Positions 15,217-16,020 of a stretch of DNA of 64,000 bases are shown piece after piece (the first letter of the stretch is position 1; each line of letters starts with the position of its first letter). Source of the DNA: Escherichia coli (GTDB lineage: Bacteria > Pseudomonadota > Gammaproteobacteria > Enterobacterales > Enterobacteriaceae). The position numbers and the translations under genes are program-made. Where the stretch lies: assembly GCF_003334405.1 (NCBI RefSeq), contig NZ_QOWM01000007.1; one strand, written 5' to 3'. The notes below the pieces were generated by a model. It saw only the letters and a list, made by a program, of their open reading frames with translations, did no database searches and was not told the origin of the DNA.

Positions 15217-15225
15217 TTTCCACAG
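15217..15225 (+). promoter_or_regulatory. DnaA box in mioC promoter region
   Basis: TTTTCCACA (DnaA box variant) about 60 nt upstream of mioC start; candidate -10 TACAAT follows. Confidence 0.7.
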
Positions 15226-15283
15226 GTAGATCCCAACGCGTTCACAGCGTACAATACGCCACTCTTAATAAAGGTGGCGGTTT

Positions 15284-15727
15284 ATGGCAGATATCACTCT
15301 TATCAGCGGCAGCACCCTCGGCGGTGCCGAATATGTAGCAGAACACCTGGCTGAAAAGCTGGAAGAGGCGGGTTTTACCACCGAAACGCTGCACGGTCCG
15401 CTGTTAGAAGATTTACCTGCCTCAGGGATCTGGCTGGTTATCAGCTCCACCCACGGTGCCGGAGATATTCCGGACAACCTTTCTCCTTTCTATGAAGCAT
15501 TGCAGGAACAGAAGCCCGATCTTTCTGCAGTCCGCTTTGGCGCAATCGGTATTGGCAGTCGTGAATATGACACCTTTTGTGGGGCTATCGATAAACTCGA
15601 GGCAGAACTCAAAAATTCCGGTGCAAAACAGACAGGCGAAACACTGAAGATCAACATTCTTGATCACGACATTCCGGAAGATCCGGCAGAAGAATGGCTG
15701 GGATCGTGGGTTAATTTACTCAAATAA
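15284..15727 (+). CDS. mioC: flavodoxin-like FMN-binding protein MioC
   Basis: 147-aa ORF, flavodoxin motif (ISSTHGAGD); immediately left of oriC. Confidence 0.95.
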   Translation: MADITLISGSTLGGAEYVAEHLAEKLEEAGFTTETLHGPLLEDLPASGIWLVISSTHGAGDIPDNLSPFYEALQEQKPDLSAVRFGAIGIGSREYDTFCGAIDKLEAELKNSGAKQTGETLKINILDHDIPEDPAEEWLGSWVNLLK

Positions 15728-15739
15728 GTATACAGATCG

Positions 15740-16020
15740 TGCGATCTACTGTGGATAACTCTGTCAGGAAGCTTGGATCAACCGGTAGTTATCCAAAGAA
15801 CAACTGTTGTTCAGTTTTTGAGTTGTGTATAACCCCTCATTCTGATCCCAGCTTATACGGTCCAGGATCACCGATCATTCACAGTTAATGATCCTTTCCA
15901 GGTTGTTGATCTTAAAAGCCGGATCCTTGTTATCCACAGGGCAGTGCGATCCTAATAAGAGATCACAATAGAACAGATCTCTAAATAAATAGATCTTCTT
16001 TTTAATACCCAGGATCCCAG
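15740..16020. other. oriC: oriC chromosomal replication origin
   Basis: DnaA boxes TGTGGATAA (15750-15758, R4), TTATCCAAA (15789-15797), TGTGTATAA (15824-15832, R2), TCATTCACA (15875-15883), TTATCCACA (15930-15938, R1); three 13-mers GATCTnTTnTTTT on minus strand (15952-15964, 15967-15979, 15983-15995) plus AT cluster; 14 GATC sites in about 290 bp. Confidence 0.97.

What the first reader, a model, noticed from the sequence alone, without database searches (positions are those of the whole stretch)
15217..16020. Complete oriC with flanking mioC promoter DnaA box
All hallmark elements are present in canonical spacing: DnaA boxes R1, R2 and R4 plus lower-affinity sites, three 13-mer DNA-unwinding repeats, and 14 GATC Dam sites in about 290 bp. 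A TTTTCCACA DnaA box sits in the mioC promoter, from which transcription reads into the origin.
Basis: partly seen in the sequence, partly recalled or inferred. Interest (0 to 1): 0.4.

Follow-up and report, generated by a model that had tools for sequence, protein, structure and literature searches.

The report
E. coli chromosomal replication origin oriC

Summary
The finding is correct and already known. The 64-kb window is the reverse complement of E. coli K-12 MG1655 NC_000913.3 3,877,739-3,941,738. It has 10 point differences, none in 15100-16150. RefSeq annotates 'oriC' at window 15764-15995, and the classical 245-bp minimal origin maps to 15751-15995.

Every claimed element is present:
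- R1 (15930-15938), R2 (15824-15832) and R4 (15750-15758).
- R5M and the two arrays of low-affinity sites, with the published 2-bp spacing.
- Three tandem 13-mers (15952-15995).
- 14 GATC in 15728-16020, 11 of them in the minimal origin, against 1.6 per 290 bp elsewhere.
- The TTTTCCACA box at 15216-15224, 2 bp upstream of a conserved mioC promoter that points into oriC. No terminator-like site lies between them.

The cumulative G-C skew minimum of the window is at 16138. In 73 distinct Enterobacteriaceae origins the boxes and GATC sites are conserved (0.90 and 0.99) while the spacers are not (0.64). The region is single-copy, on chromosomes only, in 5425 of 5426 complete E. coli genomes.

Minor corrections: the box starts at 15216, not 15217. 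No 13-mer matches its consensus perfectly. Single 13-mer-like sequences are not enriched; only the tandem arrangement is special. Interest is very low.

The parts
15216..15224 (+). DnaA box TTTTCCACA of the mioC promoter ('R5' in the nomenclature of Hansen et al.)
   Evidence: Exact match. The sequence is named as the mioC (R5) box in PMC5835720. Conservation is 0.97 across 70 distinct Enterobacteriaceae rows, 53 of which have exactly TTTTCCACA.
15227..15255 (+). Inferred mioC promoter: -35 TAGATC (15227-15232), 17-bp spacer, -10 TACAAT (15250-15255)
   Evidence: Both hexamers are invariant (1.00) in 70 species rows, while the flanks score 0.56-0.66. The consensus scan did not call it because the -35 matches only 3 of 6. 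The placement is my inference; no transcription start was checked.
15284..15727 (+). mioC coding sequence (FMN-binding flavoprotein), transcribed toward oriC
   Evidence: ORF. Annotated as mioC b3742 in NC_000913.3 and mapped to the window.
15751..15995 (-). Classical 245-bp minimal oriC (classical positions 23-267; position n = window 16018-n)
   Evidence: Mapped from the BamHI site at 16012-17. It holds 11 GATC. The 245-bp definition (left of the L 13-mer to the right of R4) is given in PMC4585315 and PMC5835720.
15764..15995 (-). RefSeq 'origin_of_replication oriC' feature (232 bp)
   Evidence: NC_000913.3 3925744-3925975, mapped. It leaves out R4 and C1.
15750..15758 (-). DnaA box R4, TTATCCACA (high affinity)
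   Evidence: Conservation 0.99.
15762..15803 (-). Right array of low-affinity DnaA sites: C1 15762-70, I3 15773-81, C2 15784-92, C3 15795-803. R3 (TTATCCAAA, + strand, 15789-97) overlaps C2 and C3.
   Evidence: Placed by the published spacing (3 bp from R4, then 2 bp between sites; PMC4451416, PMC6070618). Conservation is C1 0.49, I3 0.86, C2 0.99, C3 0.82 and R3 0.94.
15804..15823 (.). Spacer between R2 and C3, where the literature places the Fis site
   Evidence: The position comes from PMC4451416. Conservation is 0.70. No motif test was run.
15824..15832 (-). DnaA box R2, TTATACACA
   Evidence: Conservation 0.96.
15842..15883 (+). Left array of low-affinity DnaA sites: I2 15842-50, I1 15853-61, tau2 15864-72, R5M 15875-83 (TCATTCACA)
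   Evidence: The 2-bp spacing rule was applied from R5M. Conservation is 0.93, 0.89, 0.98 and 0.98.
15884..15929 (.). 46-bp R1-R5M spacer, which holds the IHF-binding site and tau1 according to the literature
   Evidence: The position comes from PMC4451416 and PMC5716108. Conserved blocks AAGATCA and GGATC are visible. The simple IHF consensus has no match with 1 mismatch or fewer here. tau1 was not placed.
15930..15938 (+). DnaA box R1, TTATCCACA (high affinity)
   Evidence: Conservation 0.99.
15952..15995 (-). DNA-unwinding element: 13-mers R (15952-64), M (15967-79) and L (15983-95)
   Evidence: It is 73% A+T, in the top 1% of 44-bp windows. L is 0.86 conserved. M and R were the search bait, so their conservation is uninformative.
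15996..16011 (-). AT-cluster to the left of the L 13-mer (classical positions 7-22)
   Evidence: Sequence TGGGTATTAAAAAGAA on the - strand. Conservation 0.92.
16025..16052 (+). Promoter-like site of mnmG (gidA), TTCTCA-16-TAGAAT, reading away from oriC
   Evidence: Consensus scan. The hexamer regions are conserved. Direction away from oriC is stated in PMC4446571.
16106..17995 (+). mnmG (gidA) coding sequence
   Evidence: ORF. Annotation.

Best explanation
Window 15751-15995 is the single chromosomal replication origin, oriC, of an E. coli strain very close to K-12. Window 15216-15727 is the adjacent DnaA-repressed mioC gene, whose transcripts run into the origin.

Mechanism, as established in the literature for this exact sequence:
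1. DnaA sits on the high-affinity boxes R1, R2 and R4 through most of the cell cycle.
2. As DnaA-ATP rises, it spreads cooperatively from R4 along C1-I3-C2-C3 and displaces Fis.
3. IHF then bends the R1-R5M spacer, so DnaA recruited by R1 loads at R5M and extends over tau2-I1-I2.
4. The left DnaA oligomer, together with IHF, melts the AT-rich 13-mers and holds the T-rich single strand.
5. DnaB-DnaC is loaded and two forks leave in opposite directions.
6. After firing, the 11 GATC sites are hemimethylated and bound by SeqA. This blocks the low-affinity sites for about a third of the cycle and prevents re-initiation.
7. DnaA bound at the TTTTCCACA box and its weaker neighbours represses the mioC promoter before initiation. 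Transcription toward oriC (positive supercoils ahead of the polymerase) resumes after initiation. mnmG/gidA transcription leaves the origin on the other side.

Shown here: sequence identity, the position and spacing of every element, enrichment over chance, the skew minimum, conservation, and copy number.

Taken from the literature and not tested here: protein binding, the order of assembly, unwinding, sequestration, and promoter repression.
For: Identity:
- 100% identity of 15100-16150 to MG1655 and many other E. coli.
- The whole window equals MG1655 3877739-3941738 with 10 SNPs, none nearer than 2.4 kb to oriC.
- RefSeq's oriC feature maps to 15764-15995.

Anatomy:
- Classical numbering fits exactly: 13-mers at 23-35, 39-51 and 54-66; R1 at 80-88; R2 at 186-194; R4 at 260-268.
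- The published spacing rules reproduce the low-affinity arrays (PMC4451416, PMC6070618).
- R1-R4 spans 189 bp, against '11 sites within 190 bp' in PMC6070618.
- Both published footprinting primers are found at 15728-46 and 15876-94.

Statistics:
- 14 GATC in 293 bp against 1.57 (sd 1.55) per 290 bp.
- 11 GATC in 245 bp against 0.89 expected.
- The cumulative G-C minimum of the 64-kb window is at 16138.

Comparative evidence:
- The DUE pattern gave one hit per species in 82 Enterobacteriaceae genomes.
- Boxes are 0.90 conserved and GATC sites outside boxes 0.99, against 0.64 for spacers. Mann-Whitney p = 2e-14, and 0 of 197 mask shifts reach the observed value.
- The mioC box, -35 and -10 are 0.97-1.00 conserved.

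Copy number: present once, on chromosomes only, in 5425 of 5426 complete E. coli genomes at 98.7% identity or better.

Literature: PMC5835720, PMC4585315, PMC4451416, PMC5716108, PMC6606810, PMC4446571.
Against: Nothing substantive.
- The simple IHF consensus finds no match with 1 mismatch or fewer inside oriC, and that consensus is barely informative anyway (122 hits against 89 expected).
- Single 13-mer-like sequences are no commoner than chance.
- The mioC promoter's -35 is a poor consensus match and the generic scan missed it.
- C1 is poorly conserved across genera (0.49).
- I count 46 bp between R1 and R5M, where PMC4451416 says 45.
- No replication assay can be run with these tools.
Confidence: 0.99

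Rival explanations
1. The locus is a DnaA-box cluster that titrates or recycles DnaA (like datA, DARS1 or DARS2) or only regulates neighbouring promoters, and it does not act as an origin.
For: DnaA boxes and GATC clusters also occur at non-origin loci. In this same window the dnaA promoter has a perfect TTATCCACA box (57792-57800) inside a cluster of 9 GATC per 290 bp.
Against: This locus also has the tandem AT-rich 13-mers next to R1 and the two oppositely oriented low-affinity arrays. It lies at the G-C skew minimum. It is base-identical to the sequence annotated and experimentally defined as oriC (PMC5835720). According to PMC4585315, datA and the DARS loci lie elsewhere on the MG1655 map.
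Confidence: 0.005
2. The sequence is a cloned or plasmid-borne copy of oriC (a minichromosome or vector insert), not the chromosomal origin in its native place.
For: oriC minichromosomes exist and carry this same segment (PMC5835720).
Against: The window is collinear with 64 kb of MG1655 chromosome on both sides, from yieP and rbs to dnaA and gyrB, with no junction. None of the 5480 matching places in complete E. coli assemblies is on a plasmid.
Confidence: 0.005
3. The motif cluster is a chance coincidence in an AT-rich intergenic spacer.
For: Individual 13-mer-like sequences and IHF-like sites occur at chance frequency.
Against: The GATC density is about 8 sd above the window mean. Three consensus boxes in 189 bp has a probability of about 3e-8 per span. 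Conservation follows the elements across 73 distinct species rows.
Confidence: 0

Closest known systems
E. coli K-12 MG1655 oriC (NC_000913.3 3925744-3925975; classical 245-bp minimal origin) with the mioC promoter
   Same: Everything is the same. 15100-16150 is 100% identical, with the same flanking genes, element positions and spacing.
   Different: There is no difference in the origin itself. The surrounding 64 kb differs from MG1655 at 10 single bases, the nearest at 12762 and 19584, so the source is a close relative and not MG1655 itself.
oriC of other Enterobacteriaceae (Salmonella, Citrobacter, Klebsiella, Enterobacter, Kosakonia, Kluyvera and others)
   Same: The architecture is the same. 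R1, R5M, tau2, R2, C2, R4 and nearly all GATC sites sit in the same aligned columns, and the mioC promoter box and hexamers are conserved.
   Different: Identity to the window is 73-98% (median 80%). The spacers, C1 and parts of the IHF and Fis spacers vary.
dnaA promoter region (in the same window, about 57650-58010)
   Same: It has a perfect TTATCCACA box and a dense GATC cluster. It is DnaA-repressed and SeqA-sequestered according to PMC5835720 and PMC4451416.
   Different: It has no tandem 13-mer unwinding element and no paired low-affinity arrays. It is a regulated promoter, not an origin.
datA, DARS1 and DARS2 DnaA-box clusters
   Same: They are non-coding clusters of DnaA boxes, some with IHF or Fis sites, that control initiation (PMC4585315).
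   Different: They change the nucleotide state of DnaA or titrate it. They have no DUE and lie elsewhere on the chromosome (PMC4585315). They are not in this window.

Membership tests
Enterobacterial chromosomal origin oriC (E. coli type) | Sequence identity to the experimentally defined E. coli K-12 minimal oriC | tested here: met
   100% identity over 15100-16150. There is no mismatch to NC_000913.3 between 12762 and 19584. The RefSeq oriC feature maps to 15764-15995.
Enterobacterial chromosomal origin oriC (E. coli type) | Three consensus DnaA boxes R1, R2 and R4 (TTATNCACA) at classical positions 80-88, 186-194 and 260-268, with R1 opposite in orientation to R2 and R4 | tested here: met
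   15930-38 (+), 15824-32 (-) and 15750-58 (-).
Enterobacterial chromosomal origin oriC (E. coli type) | Two oppositely oriented arrays of four low-affinity sites, 2 bp apart, filling the R1-R2 and R2-R4 gaps | tested here: met
   Applying the spacing rule gives R5M, tau2, I1 and I2 on the + strand and C1, I3, C2 and C3 on the - strand, each matching 3-7 of 8 consensus positions. Most are conserved. DnaA occupancy itself cannot be tested here.
Enterobacterial chromosomal origin oriC (E. coli type) | AT-rich DNA-unwinding element of three tandem 13-mers (GATCTnTTnTTTT) next to R1 | tested here: met
   15952-64, 15967-79 and 15983-95 on the - strand, with 2, 1 and 1 mismatches. The element is 73% A+T, in the top 1% of the window.
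Enterobacterial chromosomal origin oriC (E. coli type) | Dense cluster of Dam/SeqA GATC sites (11 in the 245-bp minimal origin) | tested here: met
   11 in 15751-15995 and 14 in 15728-20, against 1.57 per 290 bp in the window. 13 of 15 local GATC sites are at least 0.89 conserved.
Enterobacterial chromosomal origin oriC (E. coli type) | IHF site between R1 and R5M, and Fis site between R2 and C3 | tested here: inconclusive
   WATCARNNNNTTR has no hit with 1 mismatch or fewer in oriC, and the motif is near chance level in the window. The Fis motif was not tested. Because the sequence is identical to MG1655, the sites footprinted in PMC5716108 and PMC4451416 must be present.
Enterobacterial chromosomal origin oriC (E. 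coli type) | Genomic context asnA-asnC-mioC-oriC-gidA(mnmG)-rsmG-atp, located at the G-C skew switch | tested here: met
   Gene order. The cumulative G-C minimum is at 16138.
Enterobacterial chromosomal origin oriC (E. coli type) | One copy per chromosome | tested here: met
   Median of 1 place per genome, on chromosomes only, in 5425 of 5426 genomes. Two places were seen where a record starts inside the query, for example H40.
Enterobacterial chromosomal origin oriC (E. coli type) | DnaA-dependent autonomous replication of the fragment | not testable with these tools
   The literature establishes this for the identical 245-bp sequence (deletion analysis cited in PMC5835720).
DnaA-repressed mioC promoter | Consensus box TTTTCCACA next to the promoter, plus four weaker verified boxes (R6, R7, R8, A) | tested here: met
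   The box is at 15216-24, 2 bp upstream of the inferred -35, and is 0.97 conserved. Its sequence is confirmed in PMC5835720. I could not place the four weaker boxes because the figure that shows them is not held.
DnaA-repressed mioC promoter | Transcription directed into oriC with no efficient terminator in between | tested here: met
   mioC is on the + strand and ends at 15727. R4 starts 22 bp later. No terminator-like site lies between 15202 and 16150. Read-in is stated in PMC6606810. Actual transcripts were not measured here.
datA / DARS-type DnaA regulatory cluster | A DnaA-box cluster without an unwinding element, at the datA or DARS map positions | tested here: not met
   This locus has the DUE and is the annotated oriC. 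The map positions of datA and DARS in PMC4585315 are elsewhere.

The most novel reading that the evidence does not exclude
Nothing in the evidence points to novelty in the origin itself. The most novel reading still open concerns the short block just right of R4 (15731-15738, T-A-n-A-G-A-T-C on the + strand). It includes the GATC at 15735, which lies outside the 245-bp minimal origin yet is 0.99 conserved across Enterobacteriaceae. This block could be a functional part of the natural origin, for example an extra SeqA/Dam site or part of an origin-internal promoter overlapping R4, which the minimal-origin definition and the 232-bp RefSeq feature both leave out.
Probability: 0.15. Interest if true: 0.1.

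Novelty: already known. Interest (0 to 1): 0.03.

Why it matters
It matters only as a positive control. A reader working from raw sequence correctly recognised the most thoroughly characterised bacterial replication origin, and every element checks out against the reference annotation, the literature and cross-species conservation. It raises no open question. The practical value is an exact coordinate map of oriC and the mioC and gidA promoters in this window, and confirmation that the source strain carries a wild-type origin.

Tried and rejected
- The strict 13-mer consensus GATCTnTTnTTTT has no exact match. With up to 2 mismatches it hits 22 times against 20.6 expected. I therefore dropped single 13-mers as statistical evidence and rely on the tandem arrangement.
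- The IHF consensus WATCARNNNNTTR with up to 1 mismatch has no hit inside oriC and is near chance level in the window. It is not usable for or against.
- The generic sigma-70 scan did not call the mioC promoter. I inferred the hexamers from spacing and conservation instead.
- An RNA fold of 15700-15800 gives hairpins (z = -2.4) but no U-run, so I did not treat it as a terminator.
- Two older primary papers on mioC transcription (PMC178071, PMC25015) are not held.
- The text of PMC6070618 does not spell out the sequences of the low-affinity sites. My placement rests on the spacing rules. tau1 and mioC boxes R6, R7, R8 and A were not placed.
- Rfam and tRNA scans found nothing in or near oriC.
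- I checked whether the 10 differences from MG1655 were artificial. Three of the five in the first 25 kb are shared with the natural isolate EC416, so they are ordinary polymorphisms.

Full report
**What the window is.** The ORF layout around the finding is asnA (-), asnC, mioC, a 378-bp gap, then mnmG, rsmG and the atp operon (+). That is the classical neighbourhood of the enterobacterial origin. Megablast of 15100-16150 against 5,426 complete E. coli genomes gave 100% identity over the full length to K-12 MG1655 and many other strains. I fetched NC_000913.3 3877739-3941738. The window is its reverse complement with only 10 single-base differences. None lies between 12762 and 19584, so none is in or near the finding. 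Record position = 3941739 minus window position.

**Reference annotation.** RefSeq carries an 'origin_of_replication oriC' feature at 3925744-3925975, which is window 15764-15995. Classical numbering starts at the BamHI site on the gidA side (GGATCC at 16012-16017), so classical position n equals window 16018-n. The 245-bp minimal origin (positions 23-267) is then window 15751-15995. PMC4585315 defines the minimal origin as ending just left of 13-mer L and just right of box R4, and this placement fits exactly. The 232-bp RefSeq feature stops short of R4 and C1.

**Checking the observation, element by element.**
- Consensus DnaA boxes (TTATNCACA) are at 15930-38 (+, R1), 15824-32 (-, R2) and 15750-58 (-, R4).
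- The window holds six such boxes against 1.92 expected from shuffles. Three of them fall within 189 bp, a coincidence of about 3e-8 for any given span.
- R5M (TCATTCACA) is at 15875-83 and R3 (TTATCCAAA) at 15789-97.
- The literature rules are four low-affinity sites per half, exactly 2 bp apart, with C1 3 bp from R4 (PMC4451416, PMC6070618). Applying them gives tau2 15864-72, I1 15853-61 and I2 15842-50 on the + strand, and C1 15762-70, I3 15773-81, C2 15784-92 and C3 15795-803 on the - strand.
- R1 to R4 spans 189 bp, matching '11 sites within 190 bp' (PMC6070618).
- Both DMS-footprinting primers printed in that paper are found at 15728-46 and 15876-94.
- The three 13-mers are at 15983-95 (L), 15967-79 (M) and 15952-64 (R) on the - strand, with 1, 1 and 2 mismatches to GATCTnTTnTTTT.
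- 13-mer-like sequences at that stringency occur at chance frequency in the window (22 against 20.6). What is special is three in tandem on one strand beside R1, in a stretch that is 73% A+T and in the top 1% of the window.
Eleven are in the minimal origin, against 0.89 expected from composition and a window-wide mean of 1.57 (sd 1.55) per 290 bp.

**Independent evidence that this is an origin.** The cumulative G-C curve of the whole 64-kb window has its minimum at 16138, about 120 bp from the origin. The 378-bp mioC-mnmG spacer is present in 5425 of 5426 complete E. coli genomes. It is always on the chromosome and never on a plasmid, with a median of one place per genome, at 98.7% identity or better.

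**Comparative footprint.** A degenerate pattern covering the M and R 13-mers hit exactly once in each of 82 species genomes, spread over Escherichia, Salmonella, Citrobacter, Klebsiella, Enterobacter, Kosakonia, Kluyvera and other genera.
- I aligned 76 segments with full flanks, giving 73 distinct rows at 73-98% identity to the window.
- Outside the bait region, DnaA-box columns are 0.90 conserved, GATC columns outside boxes 0.99, and everything else 0.64.
- The Mann-Whitney p-value is 2e-14, and none of 197 circular shifts of the box mask reaches the observed value.
- R1, R4, R5M, tau2 and C2 are nearly invariant. C1 is the exception at 0.49.

**The mioC promoter.** PMC5835720 gives exactly this sequence as the mioC ('R5') box. 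[quoted passage not shown]

Two bases downstream lies TAGATC (15227-32), followed 17 bp later by TACAAT (15250-55), about 28 bp before the mioC ATG. The generic promoter scan missed this pair because the -35 is weak. Across 70 distinct species rows, however, the box (0.97), the -35 (1.00) and the -10 (1.00) form a conserved island between variable flanks of 0.56-0.66. I therefore take them to be the promoter. This is an inference, because no transcript ends were examined.

mioC is on the + strand and ends at 15727, and R4 begins 22 bp later. The only terminator-like site in 15100-16150 is upstream, at the end of asnC. The geometry therefore supports read-through into oriC, as stated in PMC6606810. 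On the far side, a promoter-like TTCTCA-16-TAGAAT at 16025-52 points away from oriC into mnmG/gidA and is conserved. This agrees with PMC4446571.

**How it works.** The mechanism comes from the literature on this exact sequence; none of it was tested here.
- DnaA holds R1, R2 and R4 through the cycle, and Fis is bound between R2 and C3.
- Rising DnaA-ATP fills the right array from R4 and displaces Fis.
- IHF bends the R1-R5M spacer, which lets DnaA load at R5M and extend across tau2, I1 and I2.
- The left oligomer plus IHF unwinds the 13-mers and captures the T-rich strand, and DnaB is loaded (PMC4451416, PMC5716108).
- After initiation, hemimethylated GATC sites bind SeqA and block the low-affinity sites for about a third of the cycle (PMC4451416, PMC4585315).
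- DnaA represses the mioC promoter before initiation, and transcription resumes afterwards (PMC5835720, PMC4446571).

**Rivals.**
- A titration or regulatory DnaA-box cluster such as datA, DARS or the dnaA promoter lacks a tandem-13-mer DUE and the paired arrays. This locus is base-identical to the defined origin.
- A plasmid-borne copy is excluded by unbroken collinearity with 64 kb of chromosome and by the absence of plasmid hits.
- Chance is excluded.

**Weak points and dead ends.**
- The IHF consensus does not pick out the known site.
- tau1 and the four weaker mioC boxes could not be placed.
- I count 46 bp between R1 and R5M where one review says 45.
- Two older primary papers were not available.

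**Verdict.** This is E. coli oriC with the mioC promoter, already known in full detail. Interest is 0.03.

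Noticed in passing
window 57651-58010 (dnaA promoter region; box at 57792-57800, - strand): A perfect TTATCCACA DnaA box lies in the ysdD-dnaA spacer, inside the second-densest GATC cluster of the window (9 per 290 bp). This is the autoregulated, SeqA-sequestered dnaA promoter described in PMC5835720 and PMC4585315.
   Followed up: partly
window 58520-58945 (inside dnaA, 58010-59413): Rfam matches AsdA, an antisense RNA of dnaA mRNA, at 58520-58600 on the - strand (101.9 bits). Next to it is another GATC cluster (9 per 290 bp, 58656-58945) and a TTTTCCACA box at 58758-58766.
   Followed up: no
window 85, 4887, 11413, 12762, 19584, 31830, 39043, 52035, 52872, 58387: These are ten single-base differences from MG1655: 1 intergenic, 4 synonymous and 5 missense (rbsB I192T, viaA Q209H, atpI V96I, pstC P164S, bglB Q336K). 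Positions 85, 4887 and 12762 are shared with the natural isolate EC416; 11413 and 19584 are not. By my estimate from the megablast bit scores, no complete genome matches the first 25 kb perfectly. The source is therefore a close relative of K-12, not MG1655 itself.
   Followed up: yes
window 15750-15770 against the RefSeq oriC feature at 15764-15995: The 232-bp origin_of_replication feature in NC_000913.3 leaves out DnaA box R4 and most of C1, both of which belong to the 245-bp minimal origin.
   Followed up: yes
window 15727-15758: The GATC at 15735-15738 lies outside the minimal origin but is 0.99 conserved in 73 Enterobacteriaceae rows, whereas the neighbouring GATC at 15743 is 0.72. A promoter-like TCCACA-17-TATACT on the - strand (15755 down to 15727) overlaps R4 and would read into mioC antisense. 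Its -10 is poorly conserved.
   Followed up: partly
window 15762-15770 (C1): C1 is described as the first low-affinity site loaded from R4, yet it is by far the least conserved DnaA site across genera (0.49, against 0.82-0.99 for the others).
   Followed up: no
window 15186-15211: A terminator-like hairpin with a T-run (AAGCCCTGATCGGCTT TTTTAATCCC) overlaps the asnC stop codon, just upstream of the mioC promoter box.
   Followed up: no
window 26298-26455 (- strand), atpC-glmU spacer: A full-length Rfam match to the enterobacterial sRNA STnc410 (188 bits).
   Followed up: no
E. coli genome collection: One of the 5426 complete E. coli genomes has no megablast match to the oriC-mioC region, although all 5426 match the surrounding 25 kb. 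It could be an origin-deleted or origin-relocated strain, or an assembly gap. I could not identify which genome it is.
   Followed up: no
L078 906-937 (CACSKA010000004.1): A record titled 'Chryseobacterium sp. 18061' carries an exact enterobacterial oriC DUE pattern. A sister record from the same project is titled Citrobacter sp. 18056 (L028). The assembly is probably mislabelled or contaminated.
   Followed up: no
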